Virus record (IMG/VR): IMGVR_UViG_640753025_000001
Location: 1 to 50,042 of that record
Source: a virus
Taxonomy: Duplodnaviria > Heunggongvirae > Uroviricota > Caudoviricetes
Strand: one strand, 5' to 3'
Length of the DNA stretch: 50,042 bases
Position numbers and translations under genes: made by a program. A model generated the notes under the pieces. That model ran no database searches. It had not been told where the DNA came from and saw only the letters and a list, made by a program, of their open reading frames with translations. Shown piece by piece: positions 1,369 to 49,768 of this stretch. How positions within the stretch are numbered: the stretch's first letter is position 1; every line of letters begins with the position of its first letter.

Positions 1369-1444
1369 GCCGATATAGCTCAGTTGGTAGAGCAGCGCAT
1401 TCGTAATGCGAAGGTCGTAGGTTCGACTCCTATTATCGGCACCA
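1369..1444 (+). tRNA. thrW: tRNA-Thr (anticodon CGU), thrW-type
   Basis: 76-nt sequence GCCGATATAGCTCAGTTGGTAGAGCAGCGCATTCGTAATGCGAAGGTCGTAGGTTCGACTCCTATTATCGGCACCA with encoded CCA end. Confidence 0.9.
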
Positions 1445-42833: not shown

Positions 42834-43064
42834 TTACTGTGTCTTTTCGTCCAGCCAGTCCGCCCACCACTGCATCATTTCTCTGCGTTTATCGAGATAC
42901 TGAGCATGGTTGTATATTCCACGCACAGATCCGCCGTTGGCATGAGCGAGTTGCACTTCGATAGTTTCGTGATGCACCAAGTGATCAAAGTAATGAAATT
43001 TAACATCCAAGCCTCCATCGATCGATACTTGCGGTAGTTGATAAGGAAAAACTATGGTACACAA
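42834..43064 (-). pseudogene. C-terminal fragment of a P4-type tyrosine integrase
   Basis: EVQLAHANGGSVRGIYNHAQYLDKRREMMQWWADWLD aligns with the C-terminus of the intact integrase at 43465..44673; no N-terminal/catalytic part. Confidence 0.6.
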
Positions 43065-43304: not shown

Positions 43305-43464
43305 CAAACTCTTCCCAAGTCTACCGAAATCAACTAAAAGCTCGTATACTGCGGTTTCTGGCCCGTATCTTATCTCCTGTTATCAACTAGACTCAACCGA
43401 AATCAAGTCGCAGTTGGGGGCATAAGTGGGGGCATTTTGTGTTCGGTCTAGGGAGATGCCCCCA

Positions 43465-44673
43465 ATGAAACTTAATGCGCGACAGGTAGACGCAGCTAAA
43501 CCCAGAGAGAAAGCCTATAAGCTGGCAGATGGTGCTGGTTTGTATCTTGAGGTTGTTCCCTCTGGTTCCAGATACTGGCGGATGAAATATCGCTTCAATG
43601 GAAAAGAGAAGCGTATGGCCTTTGGTGTCTATCCGGCAGTGTCCCTTGCACAAGCGAGGGCACTGCGTGACGACGCCAAGAAAAAGCTTGCCGAAGGTAT
43701 CGATCCATCGCTTGCCAAGAAAGAAGAAAAGCTGGTTCGAGATGTGCAGCTAAATAATACGTTTCAGGCTGTGGCACTTGAATGGCATGGAACGAAGGTG
43801 AGCCGATGGTCAGAAGGTTATGCCTCGGACATTATCGAAGCCTTTAATAAAGATATTTTTCCCTATATTGGCCAACAACCGGTGAATGAAATCAAACCGC
43901 TGGTTCTGCTTAATGTGCTGCGTCGAATTGAAAGCCGTGGCGCGACAGAGAAGGCCAAGAAGGTTCGCCAGCGTTGCAGCGAAGTCTTTCGTTACGCCAT
44001 CGTAACCGGTCGTGCGGAATACAATCCTGCAGCGGATCTTACCAGCGCGATGTCAGGGCATGAATCGAAGCATTATCCCTTCCTTACTGTTGAGGAGTTA
44101 CCAGACTTTTTTAAAGCTCTCGCAGGCTACACAGGAAGCCCGTTAGTTGTTCTTGCGGCACGTCTGCTGATCCTCACGGGAGTTCGCACTGGCGAACTCC
44201 GAGGTGCTTTCTGGAGTGAGTTTGATCTTGAAAAAGCGGTGTGGGAGATACCTGCCGAGCGTATGAAGATGAAACGGCCTCACCTTGTCCCCCTCTCTAC
44301 CCAAGCGCTGGAAATCGTACAGCAACTCAAAGTGATGTCAGGGCAATATCCACTGGTGTTCCCGGGACGTAATGATCCCCGCAAGACGATGAGTGAAGCG
44401 AGTATTAATCAGGTTTTTAAGCGGATTGGATATACGGGGAGGGTAACGGGGCATGGTTTCCGTCACACGATGAGTACGATTTTGCATGAGGAAGGTTTCA
44501 ATACAGCGTGGATTGAAACCCAGCTGGCTCACGTTGATAAAAATGCGATTCGTGGGACGTATAACCATGCGTTGTATTTGGAAGGACGTAGGGAGATGAT
44601 GCAGTGGTATGCGGACTATATAAACGCTAATCATAATTCATGTATTTCTTTGCTGGTGAACGCTACAAAGTAG
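43465..44673 (+). CDS. int: tyrosine integrase, P4 type
   Basis: ATG at 43465 after GGGAGA; catalytic HGFRHT and RGTYNHALY regions; begins 160 bp after the tRNA 3' repeat, reading away from it. Confidence 0.9.
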   Translation: MKLNARQVDAAKPREKAYKLADGAGLYLEVVPSGSRYWRMKYRFNGKEKRMAFGVYPAVSLAQARALRDDAKKKLAEGIDPSLAKKEEKLVRDVQLNNTFQAVALEWHGTKVSRWSEGYASDIIEAFNKDIFPYIGQQPVNEIKPLVLLNVLRRIESRGATEKAKKVRQRCSEVFRYAIVTGRAEYNPAADLTSAMSGHESKHYPFLTVEELPDFFKALAGYTGSPLVVLAARLLILTGVRTGELRGAFWSEFDLEKAVWEIPAERMKMKRPHLVPLSTQALEIVQQLKVMSGQYPLVFPGRNDPRKTMSEASINQVFKRIGYTGRVTGHGFRHTMSTILHEEGFNTAWIETQLAHVDKNAIRGTYNHALYLEGRREMMQWYADYINANHNSCISLLVNATK

Positions 44674-44914: not shown

Positions 44915-46123
44915 ATGAACAGTAACTATATGCCATTCACACAACGAGATAGTCTCGGAAGATACTATACAAAAGAATCCATAAGTGCATTATTGGTTTC
45001 TCAGATGAAAGCTGAAAAAGTCAATAATATTATTGATTTAGCTTCTGGTGAGGGGAGCTTAACCTATGCTGCTTTAGACCGATGGAAGAATGCAGAAGCA
45101 TATTCTTTGGATATAGAATCTCGGATGTCAAAAAAAGTATGTGATAATCTTACTCATATTGTAACAGATGCCCTTGTTCATTCATTTCCTGAAATGCTTG
45201 CCCGACATCAAGGAAATTTTGATGTTGCAGTATGTAATCCTCCATTCACTCTCCCTGAATGGAGGGATGATTATTTTAAAATCATTAGTGAGATTGGCGC
45301 AGATAAATATATATCTGTCTCAAAATATGTCCCAGCAGAGATAATATTTATATCTCAAGTCATCAGGTTTCTTAAAAAGGGCGGTGAGGCTGGAATAATT
45401 TTACCTGATGGTATATTTACAGCAAGAAAGTTTATAGGTTTAAGACGATATTTATTGAATGAACATTCAATTACAAAAGTCATTGAATTGCCTAGGAATA
45501 TCTTCAAAAGGACAGAGGCTAAAACACATATTTTAATTTTTAATAAAAAAATTATGCCTCATCATAAAATACAATTACATTGTATAACTAAAGATGGGGA
45601 ATTGTCGCCTCCTGTTTTAATTAGAAAAGAAGATGCGGTTGAGAGAATGGACTACTCTTATCATTATAATAAAAATGAAGGTAAAGGGTTTAGCACAATA
45701 GGGATGCTTAAAAATATTTCAATTTTTAGAGGTAGGTTTAATTCAAAGGAAATTACGGAACATGTTTTTCATACGACAAAATTTAGTGGTGATGAAAAGT
45801 ACATTAAATTCCACTGCAACTCTGTAGAAGAATTGAAGCCATCAAAATTAGATGTCATTGCTAAGCCTGGTGATATATTAATAGCAAGAGTTGGGCGAAA
45901 TTTTCATAAAAAAATATTGTTTGTTGAGAGCGGCTATTCTTATATCAGTGACTGTATTTTTCTGATACGAGCCTCTGGTGGAGATAAGAAAAAACTATTT
46001 GATTTTCTTTGTTCTCAAGATGGGCAAGAGGAATTATCTCGAGCGAGTAGTGGTGTAGCCGCACAACATATTACAATGGATGCATTAAAAAAAATACATC
46101 TTGTAAGGATTAAACATGACTGA
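44915..46123 (+). CDS. N6-adenine DNA methyltransferase, gamma class
   Basis: 402 aa; GRYYTKESI (motif X-like), IIDLASGEGSLT (AdoMet motif I), CNPPF (motif IV, 45236..45247); ~160-aa C-terminal putative recognition domain; AT-rich. Confidence 0.8.
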   Translation: MNSNYMPFTQRDSLGRYYTKESISALLVSQMKAEKVNNIIDLASGEGSLTYAALDRWKNAEAYSLDIESRMSKKVCDNLTHIVTDALVHSFPEMLARHQGNFDVAVCNPPFTLPEWRDDYFKIISEIGADKYISVSKYVPAEIIFISQVIRFLKKGGEAGIILPDGIFTARKFIGLRRYLLNEHSITKVIELPRNIFKRTEAKTHILIFNKKIMPHHKIQLHCITKDGELSPPVLIRKEDAVERMDYSYHYNKNEGKGFSTIGMLKNISIFRGRFNSKEITEHVFHTTKFSGDEKYIKFHCNSVEELKPSKLDVIAKPGDILIARVGRNFHKKILFVESGYSYISDCIFLIRASGGDKKKLFDFLCSQDGQEELSRASSGVAAQHITMDALKKIHLVRIKHD

Positions 46124-47822
46124 TGTGGAATTAGATAGTAATTTTCTTATCGAGGAACGAGCTGATTATATTGATGAGGATACGATAAAAAATAATACTA
46201 TCAGATCTGGAGAGTTTTTCGATATTATACATAATGCTCTTATATCCCCAGGCATCAAACTTATAGTTGGTCCTAGGGGATGTGGTAAAACACATTTGAT
46301 GCGTTATGCTTGGGTTGAATGTAAAAACGATGATAACGCACCATTACCACTCTATGTTTCTTTTAATAAATATTTTAAGTTAGAGCCGCTTTTAAAAAAT
46401 AAACCAAATGCAATTGATCTCTTTCATAAATGGGTATTAGCAAAGATACTACTCTCTGCTTATGAAATTGCTTGCGATATTGAAGATTCTGAATATCTTG
46501 ATTTGTCAACGATACTCATAGCGGATAAAGAGTTCCTAATTAATTTAATCGTAAGGCTTGAGCAGGGTCTTTCGCCATCATTAGAACAAGAAAACATTGT
46601 TCAATTGATCAGTGTTTCTTCTGTCATATCCTCGTTGAGTTCACTATGTGATTGGCTTGAACGTAAAAGAGTCATTATTTTATTAGACGATGCAGCAATA
46701 AGCTTAACTCCTGAATATCTTTACGAGTTTTTTGATATTGTACGTAGTCTAAAAACCTCAAAAATAGCTTTAAAGGCATCGGTTTATCCTGGAACAACCG
46801 AATATGGCCCAAGGTTTCATGTTGCTCATGATGCTGAAACAATTGATGCTTGGATTTCGGTACAGCACCCTAATTATTCCTCAGTGATGGATGCTATAGC
46901 GCAGGCAAGGTTTCCTGGGTATGATGGCATTCCGGATGACTTGAAAGAGTTATTTAAATTCTCAGCATTTGGTATTCCACGTTCTTTTTTGATGATGTTA
47001 AGAGATTATCAAACAACTTTAAGTCAGACAACTCAGCAAAAATTTAATAAAATAATTGAAAGGTATGTTGAGCTTAGACTCAGCGAATACAGTTCACTAA
47101 AAGATAAGCTACCTCGATTGTTTGACATTGTTTCATTAGGTGAATCACTTTTATTAAAAGTAGTCGAATTACTCAAGGAAAGTAACTCCCAATATAAAGA
47201 AGAGAAACAAGTCATAATCGGTATAGAGAAAAATGATAATGTTTATTTTTCTCGACTCACTAAGCTATTAATTGAAACAGGGCTTTTTTATAATCTTCCT
47301 GATATTTCTCATGGTGATGGGCGTACTTATGAAAGATATATACCTCATTATGCTTTATTAATAAAGGAAAGAGTGTTTAACGAAGGAAGTAGAGGTTTTT
47401 CTCCTTCTCAGATTATTCAAAAAATACTAAGAAAGAATGCTAAGCATCCTGTCAGAAGAAACATTTCATCATTATTCAATGCTGAGCAACTTGCGAGACT
47501 TAAACTAACTTTACCTCCATGCAATAACTGCAAGACTCCGCGATTGACTGACAATCAAAAATTTTGCCATCATTGTGGGAATCAATTGATTGATGAGTCG
47601 GCCTATAATCAGTGCATGTCTATTCCACTGTCAAAAGTACCACATCTAACATCTTGGCAAATGCAAAAACTATCTGGGCTGGAAAAAGTAAAAACTATAG
47701 GAGATGTATTGTCTTTACAAGACCCTGGGAGTGAGTTAAGAAAAATTCACAGAATAGGACCCAAAATTGCCAATAAAATTATGGACAAAGTGTTATTACA
47801 TGTTGAAGAGTTTTTGTCTTAA
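46116..47822 (+). CDS. P-loop ATPase with C-terminal zinc ribbon and helix-hairpin-helix
   Basis: 568 aa; Walker A GPRGCGKTH (46269..46295), Walker B-like VIILLDDA, CNNCKTP...CHHCGNQL (from ~47519), HhH IHRIGPKIANKI; start overlaps MTase stop. Confidence 0.7.
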   Translation: MTDVELDSNFLIEERADYIDEDTIKNNTIRSGEFFDIIHNALISPGIKLIVGPRGCGKTHLMRYAWVECKNDDNAPLPLYVSFNKYFKLEPLLKNKPNAIDLFHKWVLAKILLSAYEIACDIEDSEYLDLSTILIADKEFLINLIVRLEQGLSPSLEQENIVQLISVSSVISSLSSLCDWLERKRVIILLDDAAISLTPEYLYEFFDIVRSLKTSKIALKASVYPGTTEYGPRFHVAHDAETIDAWISVQHPNYSSVMDAIAQARFPGYDGIPDDLKELFKFSAFGIPRSFLMMLRDYQTTLSQTTQQKFNKIIERYVELRLSEYSSLKDKLPRLFDIVSLGESLLLKVVELLKESNSQYKEEKQVIIGIEKNDNVYFSRLTKLLIETGLFYNLPDISHGDGRTYERYIPHYALLIKERVFNEGSRGFSPSQIIQKILRKNAKHPVRRNISSLFNAEQLARLKLTLPPCNNCKTPRLTDNQKFCHHCGNQLIDESAYNQCMSIPLSKVPHLTSWQMQKLSGLEKVKTIGDVLSLQDPGSELRKIHRIGPKIANKIMDKVLLHVEEFLS

Positions 47823-47892: not shown

Positions 47893-48870
47893 ATGGAACT
47901 AGAATCAAAAGAGGATTATGAAGAGACCACTCATCATAATGTGGCGTCCTCAGTTGTCACTGCAACCCATGATAACTTAGATGGAAGAGAGTTTTTTGAA
48001 CTATGTAGTAATCCAGCTCTAGTTTTTTCGTTTGAGACACACAAAAAATTTAATGAGTTACCTGTTGATAGCAAGGAATCCCCGTTAGATCTTTTTATAG
48101 CTAATACAAAGCAACTTCACTTGTTAAGATCTGGTGATATTTCAAACACATTAAGCCATCTGTTGTTATTAGGTTATGTGTCTGCAGCCGAAAGTTATTT
48201 GCGAGCTCTTATCAGAAATCTAATTAATCATGATGAATATATACAGTCTATAGTTTCTGATAAGGCCGTTAGTTATGCAGCGGCACAACACCATAAAAAG
48301 GAGTTATTACCAGAAGCTTTACTTGAGGACTTTTCATTGGCAAGCCCTTATAATGTTTTTGAAACATTAAAGGACATTATTGGAATGAAAGGACAACGAC
48401 CAATCGAAATGATGAAATGCTCAAGCGAATTCATGAAAGTTTGCGAGTTAAGGCATTGTTGTGTTCATCGATTTGGTAAGTTGGGTTCGAAAAATGCAAT
48501 CCGACTAGGATTGGCTGAACATATGAAGCACTTAGAAAAACCGATAATACTCAATAATGATGATCTCGAGCAAATCGCATTTATTGTTGAGAATTTTATT
48601 AGAACTTTGAATAATACCGTTTTCAAATTTATAATTAATCGTACAGTTGAGAACAAAAATAAGGAAAAAGGAGGGGAAAGACTATATGATTCTGAATGGA
48701 CATGGGTGTTTGAAAAAGATATAAGTCGATACGAAAAGTATTATTCAATATTTAGTGCCAAAAACGATACCCTTCCCGGATTATCATTACAGGATTCATA
48801 TCAACTTTTTGTTAATGCATATAAGCCTAAACTTCCTGCAAGAAAAAATAAAAAAACTGAAGAAAATTAA
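47893..48870 (+). CDS. hypothetical protein with Rx4H (HEPN-like) motif
   Basis: 325 aa from ATG 47893; RHCCVH at 48451..48468; AT-rich; alternative in-frame starts at 47767 and 47833. Confidence 0.5.
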   Translation: MELESKEDYEETTHHNVASSVVTATHDNLDGREFFELCSNPALVFSFETHKKFNELPVDSKESPLDLFIANTKQLHLLRSGDISNTLSHLLLLGYVSAAESYLRALIRNLINHDEYIQSIVSDKAVSYAAAQHHKKELLPEALLEDFSLASPYNVFETLKDIIGMKGQRPIEMMKCSSEFMKVCELRHCCVHRFGKLGSKNAIRLGLAEHMKHLEKPIILNNDDLEQIAFIVENFIRTLNNTVFKFIINRTVENKNKEKGGERLYDSEWTWVFEKDISRYEKYYSIFSAKNDTLPGLSLQDSYQLFVNAYKPKLPARKNKKTEEN

Positions 48871-49070: not shown

Positions 49071-49574
49071 TTATTGATAGTGTTTTATGTTCAGATAATG
49101 CCCGATGACCTTGTCATGCAGCTCCACCGATTTTGAGAACGACAGTGACTTCCGTCCCAGCCTTGCCAGATGTTGTCTCAGATTCAGATTATGTCGCTCA
49201 ATGCGCTGAGTGTAACGCTTGCTGATAACGTGCAGCTTTCCCTTCAGGCGTGATTCATACAGCGGCCAGCCATCCGTCATCCATACCACGACCTCAAAGG
49301 CCGACAGCAGGCTCAGAAGACGCTCCAGTGTGGCCAGAGTGCGTTCACCGAAGACGTGCGCCACAACCGTCCTCCGTATCCTGTCATACGCGTAAAACAG
49401 CCAGCGCTGACGTGATTTAGCACCGACGTAGCCCCACTGTTCGTCCATTTCAGCGCAGACAATCACATCACTGCCCGGTTGTATGCGCGAGGTTACCGAC
49501 TGCGGCCTGAGTTTTTTAAGTGACGTAAAACCGTGTTGAGGCCAACGCCCATAATGCGTGCACTGGCGCGACAT
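49071..49574 (-). CDS. insB: IS1 InsB (expressed as InsAB' by frameshift)
   Basis: 167-aa ORF recognised as IS1 InsB. Confidence 0.9.
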
Positions 49575-49768
49575 CCGACGCCATTCATGGCCATATCAAT
49601 GATTTTCTGGTGCGTACCGGGCTGAGAGGCGGTGTAAGTGAACTGTAGTTGCCATGTTTTACGGCAATGAGAGCAGAGATAGCGCTGATGTCCGGCAGTG
49701 CTTTTGCCGTTACGCACCACGCCTTCAGTAGCGGAGCAGGAAGGACATCTGATGGAAATGGAAGCCAC
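49493..49768 (-). CDS. insA: IS1 InsA
   Basis: 91-aa ORF recognised as IS1 InsA. Confidence 0.9.

What the first reader, a model, noticed from the sequence alone, without database searches (positions are those of the whole stretch)
47893..48870. Third gene carries a candidate HEPN Rx4H motif; possible abortive-infection effector
RHCCVH at 48451..48468 fits the minimal Rx4-6H HEPN signature in an otherwise unrecognisable, Lys/Glu-rich 325-aa protein. HEPN RNases are frequent toxic effectors of defence systems. A single short motif is weak evidence on its own; the operon context is what raises interest.
Basis: inference. Interest (0 to 1): 0.55.

Follow-up and report, generated by a model that had tools for sequence, protein, structure and literature searches.

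The report
HEPN effector of methylase–ATPase defence cassette
The third gene very probably encodes a diverged HEPN-type RNA-cutting enzyme that always travels with a DNA methylase and a switch-type ATPase, a three-gene cassette with no DNA-cutting enzyme that looks like an undescribed anti-phage system.

Summary
RHCCVH lies at 48451-48468 in a 325-aa ORF (47893-48870) that matches no Pfam or NCBIfam model. The string alone means little: Rx4H appears in 41% of shuffles, and the protein holds two other, unconserved Rx4-6H strings.

Other evidence makes it a real HEPN site:
- Across 110 representatives of 50%-identity clusters, the only invariant columns are this R, this H and an upstream E of an Ex3R motif.
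- A confident AlphaFold model puts the motif at the end of a long helix, where HEPN domains carry it.
- 18 of those 110 representatives give sub-threshold hits to Pfam HEPN_RiboL-PSP.

The gene belongs to a three-gene cassette: an N6-adenine DNA methyltransferase with a target-recognition domain, an ORC/Cdc6-STAND-type AAA+ ATPase with winged-helix, zinc-ribbon and helix-hairpin-helix domains, and the HEPN gene. All three occur together in 54 of 59 species-level genome loci from several phyla. Gene order is sometimes permuted. No fourth gene is conserved and no DNase is detectable.

In E. coli (147 of 5426 complete genomes) the cassette rides a P4-integrase island at tRNA-Thr. In strain HS it sits beside BREX.

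Best reading: a methylation-gated, ATPase-activated RNase defence system. Function is inferred, not shown. I found no published description.

The parts
47893..48870 (+). Gene 3: diverged HEPN-superfamily protein of 325 aa, the predicted RNase effector. RefSeq uses an alternative start at 47800 (356 aa).
48451..48468 (+). R187-H188-C-C-V-H192: the conserved R[NDH]x3H HEPN catalytic motif.
   Evidence: R and H are present in 56/56 genome loci and invariant in 115 homologues and in 110 representatives of 50%-identity clusters. In the model the motif sits at the C-terminal end of helix 202-223 (356-aa numbering), followed by a loop.
48190..48204 (+). E100-x3-R104 (SAAESYLR): the second HEPN hallmark, an Ex3[KR] motif in the long N-terminal helix.
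   Evidence: E100 and R104 are present in 56/56 loci. E is one of only three invariant columns in alignment A3. The Ex3[KR] criterion comes from PMC3710099.
44915..46123 (+). Gene 1: gamma-class N6-adenine DNA methyltransferase. The catalytic domain spans about residues 1-230 (motif I DLASGEG, motif IV NPPF). A single type-I-S-like target-recognition domain spans about residues 258-400.
   Evidence: Pfam N6_Mtase 1.7e-22 and Eco57I 6e-11. PADLOC MTase_II 8e-237, full length. NCBIfam MAD5 S-subunit hit at 258-400. The motifs are conserved in 51-52/52 loci.
46116..47822 (+). Gene 2: ORC/Cdc6-STAND-class AAA+ ATPase of 568 aa. Features: Walker A GPRGCGKT (46269-46292), Walker B LLDD (D191-D192, 46686-46691), winged helix (about residues 376-410), 4-Cys zinc ribbon (47520-47576) and C-terminal helix-hairpin-helix (about 47652-47816).
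43426..44673 (+). P4-type tyrosine integrase of the island that carries the cassette. This is context, not part of the conserved cassette.
   Evidence: Pfam Phage_int_M, Arm-DNA-bind_3 and Phage_integrase. In other E. coli it lies directly next to tRNA-Thr.
49071..49768 (-). IS1 that bounds the cassette downstream. In strain HS it separates the cassette from BREX-1.
   Evidence: ORFs. RefSeq annotation.

Best explanation
Gene 3 is a diverged member of the HEPN superfamily, closest to the RiboL-PSP-HEPN clade. It has an intact metal-independent RNase-type active site made of E100, R187, H188 and H192. It is the only nuclease-like component of a self-contained three-gene mobile cassette.

Proposed mechanism:
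- The gene-1 methyltransferase marks host DNA at its recognition sites with m6A.
- The gene-2 STAND/ORC-Cdc6-type ATPase reads DNA through its winged-helix, zinc-ribbon and helix-hairpin-helix modules. It switches on, by ATP-dependent oligomerisation, when it meets unmarked (phage or plasmid) DNA or another infection cue.
- The activated ATPase licenses the HEPN protein, probably a dimer, to cut RNA: tRNA, rRNA or mRNA. This arrests translation and aborts infection.

Shown here: the HEPN hallmarks, the fold, the domain architectures, the conservation and co-inheritance of the three genes, and the absence of a detectable DNase.

Inferred: RNase activity, which component senses what, the role of methylation as the self mark, and the defence phenotype.
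For: HEPN identity:
- The only invariant columns among 110 representatives of 50%-identity clusters are the Ex3R glutamate and the R and H of RHCCVH. The same residues are present in 56/56 genome loci.
- The residue after R is a nearly invariant His. The motif ends a long helix and precedes a loop, as described for HEPN in PMC3710099.
- 18/110 relatives hit PF18735 HEPN_RiboL-PSP (best E 1.7e-5, covering 4-188 of 191 model positions). No other Pfam family collects more than 3.
- PADLOC RTasHEPN matches 11/115 homologues and Csm6 matches 3/115.

Cassette:
- MTase, ATPase and HEPN occur together in 54 of 59 species-level loci from Proteobacteria, Bacteroidota, Acidobacteriota and Myxococcota. 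In 7 loci the order is permuted.
- ORF clustering finds no fourth conserved gene.
- Pairwise-identity matrices correlate: ATPase-HEPN 0.86, MTase-ATPase 0.74, MTase-HEPN 0.72, with 0/999 permutations reaching these values.
- MTase catalytic motifs and the ATPase Walker motifs are conserved.

ATPase class: the fold matches switch/sensor AAA+ proteins including Cdc6/Orc1, BrxC, Avs3 and RdrA.

Defence and mobile context:
- GC is 33-34% against 46.5% for the window.
- The cassette sits on a P4-integrase island at thrW, next to BREX-1 in strain HS.
- Immediate neighbours elsewhere are integrases and transposases. About 10% are strong PADLOC hits: Type I/IIG R-M, DpdF, LmuA, PsyrT, PD-T4-5, HEC-06 and CARF6.
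Against: - No member of the close family, including the window protein, reaches the gathering score of any Pfam HEPN model.
- Foldseek against the PDB gave nothing significant, with best E 0.44.
- Intact ATPase-HEPN pairs exist without a nearby MTase: L047, L057 and the long-HEPN branch L073. Methylation gating therefore cannot be obligatory for the pair.
- The MTase target-recognition domain is only moderately variable across the family. This is less than expected if specificity diversified as in classical R-M.
- No experiment supports RNase activity, toxicity or phage resistance.
- The neighbour enrichment for defence genes is a rough count without a matched control.
Confidence: 0.6

Rival explanations
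1. Guard (PrrC-like) model. The MTase is not a self-marker for the ATPase. Instead it is the guarded or inhibitory partner: the ATPase-HEPN pair is held silent by the MTase (or by methylated DNA-bound MTase) and fires when a phage anti-restriction protein or DNA mimic inactivates it.
For: The precedent is PrrC, which is kept latent by the EcoprrI R-M proteins and released by T4 Stp (PMC3710099). The cassette has an NTPase plus a HEPN linked to a methylase. ATPase-HEPN pairs can exist without the MTase, as expected if the pair is the autonomous Abi module.
Against: The cassette contains no restriction enzyme to guard. Guarding a solitary methylase has no obvious benefit. The ATPase carries three DNA-binding-type modules, which suggests it reads DNA itself.
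Confidence: 0.15
2. Methylation-independent sensor-effector pair. The STAND-like ATPase senses a phage protein or DNA structure, as Avs and RADAR-type ATPases do, and activates the HEPN. The MTase is a co-travelling orphan or epigenetic passenger, or a separate anti-restriction or regulatory function of the mobile island.
Against: The MTase is present in 54 of the 57 loci where it could be assessed. It stays linked when gene order is permuted, keeps its catalytic motifs and co-varies with the other two proteins. That is not expected of a passenger.
Confidence: 0.15
3. Unconventional restriction enzyme. The HEPN-like protein, with the ATPase as motor or clamp, cuts unmethylated DNA rather than RNA. 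The cassette would then be an ATP-dependent R-M system with a new nuclease fold.
For: The gene content mimics an R-M system (modification enzyme plus ATPase plus a single nuclease-like protein) and no other DNase is present.
Against: [quoted passage not shown] I know of no DNA-cleaving HEPN (own knowledge). The conserved triad here is the RNase-type E/R/H with no metal-binding acidic cluster.
Confidence: 0.05
4. Gene 3 is a non-catalytic helical adaptor or RNA/DNA-binding subunit, and the Rx4H match is coincidental.
For: The string is frequent by chance. No curated HEPN model is matched above threshold. Foldseek found nothing.
Confidence: 0.05

Closest known systems
RiboL-PSP-HEPN family (Pfam PF18735) and, more broadly, the Abi-type HEPN clades of Anantharaman et al. 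2013 (PMC3710099)
   Same: All-alpha HEPN-like core. An R-[H]-x3-H motif at the end of helix 3. An upstream Ex3R motif. It is the only Pfam family repeatedly hit by relatives: 18/110, with near full-length coverage of the model.
   Different: All hits fall below the 28.4-bit gathering score, and the window protein itself gives no hit at all. The protein is about 325 aa, with extra N- and C-terminal helices. It is not fused to L-PSP and not in a ParB operon, which are the contexts listed for that family.
PrrC anticodon nuclease embedded in the EcoprrI type Ic R-M locus (and RloC)
   Same: A HEPN RNase controlled by an NTPase and genetically tied to a DNA-modification system. The suicidal RNA-level response acts as an anti-phage strategy.
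   Different: In PrrC an ABC ATPase is fused to the HEPN, and the locus has a full HsdMSR system with a DNase. Here a separate AAA+ ORC/Cdc6-STAND ATPase is present, the MTase is a single polypeptide with its own target-recognition domain, and there is no HsdR or any DNase.
BREX and BREX-related (DUF499/Hma, 'BR type 1') systems
   Different: No PglZ, BrxA/B/L or helicase-nuclease. The ATPase is 568 aa rather than about 1200 and matches neither DUF499 nor BrxC profiles. The HEPN is a separate gene downstream rather than an N-terminal fusion, and it is the sole nuclease rather than a backup. The MTase is small and carries its own target-recognition domain, and is not PglX (PglX hit only 1e-7).
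STAND/AAA+ sensor systems (Avs, RADAR RdrA) and HEPN collateral RNases of CRISPR (Csm6, Csx1, Cas13)
   Different: No fused effector, no CARF or cyclic-oligoadenylate module, and no guide RNA. A dedicated DNA methyltransferase is present in 54 of 59 loci.

Membership tests
HEPN superfamily | Conserved R-x4-6-H motif with a polar residue (N/D/H) after the R | tested here: met
   RHCCVH: R and H are invariant in 115 homologues, in 110 representatives of 50%-identity clusters and in 56/56 genome loci. The following His is at least 90% conserved. The criterion comes from PMC3710099.
HEPN superfamily | [quoted passage not shown] | tested here: met
   In the AF2 model (pLDDT above 90 over this region) the motif occupies the last turns of helix 202-223 (356-aa numbering). 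A loop and the long helix 253-284 follow. This matches the description.
HEPN superfamily | Second conserved acidic residue upstream, typically Ex3[KR] | tested here: met
   E100-S-Y-L-R104: both residues are present in 56/56 loci, and E is invariant in alignment A3.
HEPN superfamily | Overall fold similar to solved HEPN domains | tested here: inconclusive
HEPN superfamily | Metal-independent endoribonuclease activity that leaves 2',3'-cyclic phosphate ends | not testable with these tools
   Needs biochemistry.
Pfam PF18735 HEPN_RiboL-PSP | Score at or above the curated gathering threshold (28.4 bits) | tested here: not met
   The window protein gives no hit at E<=1, or at E<=10 for the 356-aa form. 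The best relative scores 25.3 bits, and 18/110 relatives hit below threshold. It is related to the family but is not a curated member.
Restriction-modification system (types I-III) | A DNA methyltransferase with intact catalytic motifs | tested here: met
   N6_Mtase 1.7e-22 and PADLOC MTase_II 8e-237. Motif I and NPP[YF] are conserved in 51-52/52 loci.
Restriction-modification system (types I-III) | A cognate restriction endonuclease (PD-(D/E)xK, HNH, PLD, GIY-YIG ...) | tested here: not met
BREX type 1 | Core genes brxA, brxB, brxC, pglX, pglZ and brxL acting together | tested here: not met
   BREX-1 lies beyond the IS1 in strain HS only. Other E. coli carry the cassette with no adjacent BREX, and the 59 species loci share only three genes.
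PrrC/RloC anticodon nucleases | ABC (Rad50/SbcC-like) ATPase fused N-terminally to the HEPN domain | tested here: not met
   The HEPN is a separate polypeptide. The ATPase is AAA+ ORC/Cdc6-STAND type.
ORC/Cdc6-STAND class AAA+ ATPases (gene 2) | AAA+ core with Walker A/B, helical lid and a following winged helix | tested here: met
MNT-HEPN type II/VII toxin-antitoxin | Adjacent minimal nucleotidyltransferase antitoxin | tested here: not met
   No MNT in the cassette or among the conserved neighbours.

The most novel reading that the evidence does not exclude
The cassette is a restriction-modification system whose 'R' is an RNase. Self versus non-self is read epigenetically on DNA by a small ORC/Cdc6-STAND ATPase: m6A laid down by its own methylase marks self. 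The response is executed purely at the RNA level by a stand-alone HEPN enzyme, with no DNase at all. That would make it a minimal, three-gene relative of BREX-like logic and a distinct, still unnamed defence system spread across at least four bacterial phyla.
Probability: 0.35. Interest if true: 0.75.

Novelty: new variant of a known kind. Interest (0 to 1): 0.62.

Why it matters
HEPN RNases linked to modification systems have been predicted since 2013. In the known cases they serve as back-ups to a DNase (PrrC with EcoprrI, HEPN fused to DUF499 ATPases).

Here the HEPN is the only nuclease-like protein in a compact three-gene cassette. The cassette is absent from PADLOC v2 apart from its methylase, and I could not find it in the searchable literature. 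If it defends against phage, it would show that DNA methylation status can gate a purely RNA-directed abortive response.

It would also give a small, tractable model for how ORC/Cdc6-type ATPases such as BrxC couple DNA sensing to an effector. That question is still open for BREX.

The cassette sits in E. coli HS, a model gut commensal. A 2026 preprint reports that HS resists more than 100 BASEL coliphages and that only its BREX system has been studied experimentally. The cassette is an obvious candidate contributor and lies next to the BREX locus that has been cloned 'with upstream sequences'.

Tried and rejected
Searches that found nothing useful:
- Direct Pfam and NCBIfam scans of gene 3 gave nothing. 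Scanning 31 close homologues against Pfam gave only noise.
- phmmer and a profile search against PDB sequences gave nothing meaningful; 2x5h at E 0.64 was rejected.
- Foldseek against the PDB gave no significant hit. The afdb50 library was unavailable.
- The promoter/terminator consensus scan of the operon found no more than shuffles give, and there was no terminator after gene 3.
- Literature searches by RefSeq accession, Pfam accession and keyword combinations found no description of the cassette.

Ideas considered and rejected:
- RNLINH (residue 108) looks more canonical as an RNxxxH site, but its His is not conserved.
- I looked for a hypervariable MTase target-recognition domain or a matching hypervariable ATPase segment as a sign of R-M-like specificity switching. 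Conservation dips only moderately (TRD 0.25-0.34, ATPase residues 121-180 0.14-0.32), which is not decisive.
- P0038, an MTase::HEPN single polypeptide, was considered as evidence of functional fusion. It lacks the target-recognition domain and the ATPase and comes from one study's samples, so it is more likely an in-frame deletion remnant.
- The six IMG/VR viral-contig hits were considered as evidence of phage carriage. The 100%-identical hit (L061) carries the same integrase-cassette arrangement as the window, where the island abuts a P22-like prophage, so it more likely reflects a prophage call that runs on into the island. The origin of the other five hits was not examined.

Full report
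**1. Observation**

The + strand ORF 47893-48870 encodes 325 aa. RHCCVH is residues 187-192, at nt 48451-48468, exactly as reported. Lys+Glu make up 18% of the protein. It matches no Pfam-A or NCBIfam model.

The motif string alone carries almost no information. Rx4H turns up in 41% of shuffles of this protein and Rx4-6H in 80%. The protein has two more such strings, RNLINH at residue 108 and RLGLAEH at residue 204, which are not conserved in homologues.

RefSeq starts the gene at 47800 (356 aa). Three points favour 47893 instead. The extra 31 residues overlap the end of gene 2 and are predicted disordered. Three close homologues have a Met aligned with 47893. A purine-rich stretch precedes 47893.

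**2. Is it HEPN?**

Family size. A search of 5.8 billion proteins found 172 homologues. An exhaustive profile search of 1.84 billion representatives found 426 clusters at 50% identity.

Conservation. In 115 homologues CELRHCCVHRFGKLGxKNA is the most conserved block, and LLGYVSAVESYxR is the second. In an alignment of 110 representatives of 50%-identity clusters the only invariant columns are three: the Glu of an E-x3-R motif, and the Arg and His of RHCCVH. The His that follows the Arg is nearly invariant. All four residues (E100, R104, R187, H192) are present in 56/56 genome loci.

These are the hallmarks listed by Anantharaman et al. 2013. [quoted passage not shown]

Structure. An AlphaFold2 model built on 115 sequences is confident (mean pLDDT 84.6, above 90 over most of residues 70-356 in 356-aa numbering) and all-alpha. 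The motif occupies the last turns of the long helix 202-223, before a loop and the long helix 253-284. The Ex3R motif sits in the long helix 116-144.

Profile hits in relatives. Transitive sequence evidence adds support. 18 of 110 relatives hit Pfam PF18735 HEPN_RiboL-PSP, with a best E of 1.7e-5 covering 4-188 of 191 model positions. All these hits fall below the 28.4-bit cut-off. No other family collects more than 3 hits. PADLOC's RT-associated HEPN model hits 11/115 homologues and Csm6 hits 3/115.

I conclude with about 0.9 confidence that gene 3 is a diverged HEPN protein with an intact RNase-type site. It is related to the RiboL-PSP-HEPN family but is not a curated member of it.

**3. Context**

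The window is the E. coli HS chromosome or a near-identical one. The order is: P22-like prophage, an integrase remnant, a P4-type integrase (43426-44673), gene 1, gene 2, gene 3, IS1, then BREX-1 just beyond the window.

- Gene 1 (44915-46123) is a gamma-class N6-adenine DNA methyltransferase with its own single target-recognition domain. Motifs I and IV are conserved in 51-52/52 loci.
- Gene 2 (46116-47822) has invariant Walker A (GPRGCGKT) and Walker B (LLDD) motifs, four invariant Cys and a conserved helix-hairpin-helix glycine.

A scan of one genome per species (GTDB) found 59 loci encoding gene-3 relatives. Of these, 58 also encode the ATPase and 54 the MTase. Two of the loci without an MTase (L004, L058) are on short or truncated contigs. 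The loci come from Gamma-, Beta-, Alpha- and Deltaproteobacteria, Bacteroidota, Acidobacteriota and Myxococcota. In seven loci the order is ATPase-HEPN-MTase.

Clustering all ORFs of these loci shows only these three families are shared. The next real family is integrases, in 6 loci, so there is no fourth gene and no DNase. Pairwise-identity matrices of the three proteins correlate strongly: 0.86, 0.74 and 0.72, with 0/999 permutations reaching the observed values. This is consistent with inheritance as one unit.

The cassette has 33-34% GC against 46.5% for the window. In E. coli it is present at 99% identity or more in 147 of 5426 complete genomes. In two other strains the arrangement is tRNA-Thr, integrase, cassette, IS1, then unrelated genes. 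BREX adjacency is therefore specific to HS-like strains.

Immediate neighbours in the 59 loci are heterogeneous. Integrases, transposases and resolvases lead the list. Roughly one in ten neighbours is a strong PADLOC hit: Type I and IIG R-M, DpdF, LmuA, PsyrT, PD-T4-5, HEC-06, CARF6 and a PRTase. This count has no matched control.

**4. Variants that constrain the mechanism**

Intact ATPase-HEPN pairs without a nearby MTase exist. L047 and L057 are two examples, and in L057 the pair sits among nuo genes.

A more distant branch has a HEPN protein with a C-terminal extension of about 230 aa and no known domain. It follows an ATPase 33% identical to gene 2. In the one locus with enough flanking sequence (L073) no DNA MTase is present. 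In L069 only the helix-hairpin-helix-like C-terminus of the upstream gene is preserved.

The ATPase-HEPN pair is thus the core. The MTase is a nearly constant addition in the main clade.

**5. Mechanism**

The best-supported reading has three steps. The MTase marks host DNA. The DNA-binding switch ATPase is triggered by unmarked incoming DNA or another infection cue. The ATPase then licenses the HEPN RNase, which arrests translation as in abortive infection.

Only the anatomy is shown; each functional step is inferred. Four rivals were considered:
- PrrC-like guarding of the MTase.
- A methylation-independent Avs-like sensor with a passenger MTase.
- A HEPN acting as a DNase.
- A non-catalytic protein.

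They are weighed in the rival section. The last two are poorly supported, given the RNase-type invariant triad.

**6. Comparison with known systems**

The cassette fails the tests for R-M because it has no restriction endonuclease. It fails for BREX because the core genes are absent from the unit. It fails for PrrC/RloC because there is no ABC-HEPN fusion. It fails for MNT-HEPN toxin-antitoxin pairs because there is no MNT.

It works most like two things: PrrC with EcoprrI, and the HEPN-bearing BREX-related DUF499/Hma systems described in PMC12839542. It is smaller than either, and the HEPN is its sole nuclease.

PADLOC v2 recognises only the methylase. The 2013 HEPN census lists other contexts for RiboL-PSP-HEPN, namely fusion to L-PSP and ParB operons, and does not list this operon. 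A 2026 preprint on E. coli HS says only BREX has been studied among its predicted immune systems. My searches found no paper describing the cassette. The library does not cover most subscription journals, so prior description cannot be excluded.

**7. Verdict**

- The HEPN interpretation is supported.
- The cassette is a new variant of a known kind: a modification-linked, NTPase-controlled HEPN defence module.
- Interest is 0.62.

Noticed in passing
L003:9011-12924 (also L008, L027, L028, L031): In 5 of 59 species loci the cassette is followed directly by another three-gene cluster. It comprises a PRTase-like protein (PADLOC PRTase_III-A 1e-15), a 668-aa P-loop ATPase and a CARF6-like protein (7.5e-61). 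The ATPase's Walker A (GGRGCGKTMLMRY) resembles gene 2's, and it has no PADLOC hit. This may be a second, uncharacterised defence module with a paralogous ATPase.
   Followed up: partly
L073:5904-9087; L069:1-1712; L074: A distant branch has an ORC-CDC6-like ATPase (33% identical to gene 2) followed by a 460-500-aa protein. That protein is a HEPN core (RHCAVH and Ex3R conserved) plus a C-terminal extension of about 230 aa with no known domain. No DNA methyltransferase is nearby in L073.
   Followed up: partly
L070:251-1819 (L071, L072): A single 522-aa ORF joins an MTase catalytic domain (residues 1-245) in frame to the HEPN family domain. It has no target-recognition domain and no ATPase. It appears in three metagenome samples from one study. 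It is probably an in-frame deletion remnant, but it is notable because HEPN-methylase fusions were reported as absent in the 2013 census.
   Followed up: partly
window 48442-48468: Cysteines flank the catalytic motif: C184 (55/56 loci), C189 (54/56) and C190 (44/56), in C-x2-R-H-C-C-x-H. C184 and C189 persist in the distant branch. Whether this reflects simple helix packing, a metal site or a redox switch near the active site is unexplained.
   Followed up: no
window 1369-1444, about 1500-42800, 42834-43064: tRNA-Thr (thrW) lies 42 kb upstream of the island. A P22-like prophage (tailspike, Arc and DNA-transfer genes, with an IS3 inside) and the C-terminal remnant of a second P4-type integrase lie between them. 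In other E. coli the integrase-cassette island abuts the tRNA directly, so several elements have stacked at one attachment hotspot.
   Followed up: partly
window 49071-49768 and L067, L068: An IS1 follows gene 3 in all three E. coli contexts examined, but the DNA beyond it differs: BREX-1 in HS, a lactate-utilisation cluster in 13E0767 and a decarboxylase/antiporter cluster in 98212. This suggests IS1-mediated rearrangement or deletion at the island's right end. In two further genomes IS903B or IS1 interrupts the cassette.
   Followed up: no
L057:5212-8837: In a Thiotrichaceae MAG the MTase-less ATPase-HEPN pair sits between NADH dehydrogenase genes (nuoH/I-like upstream, nuoJ-like just before the pair). 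A fragment of an AAA_21/DUF3696 (AbiEii-like) ATPase lies downstream. This is either an odd insertion site or a MAG assembly chimera.
   Followed up: no
window 48214-48231: RNLINH (residues 108-113) looks more like the textbook RNxxxH HEPN motif than the true site does. Its His is not conserved in homologues, so it is a decoy for motif-based reading.
   Followed up: yes
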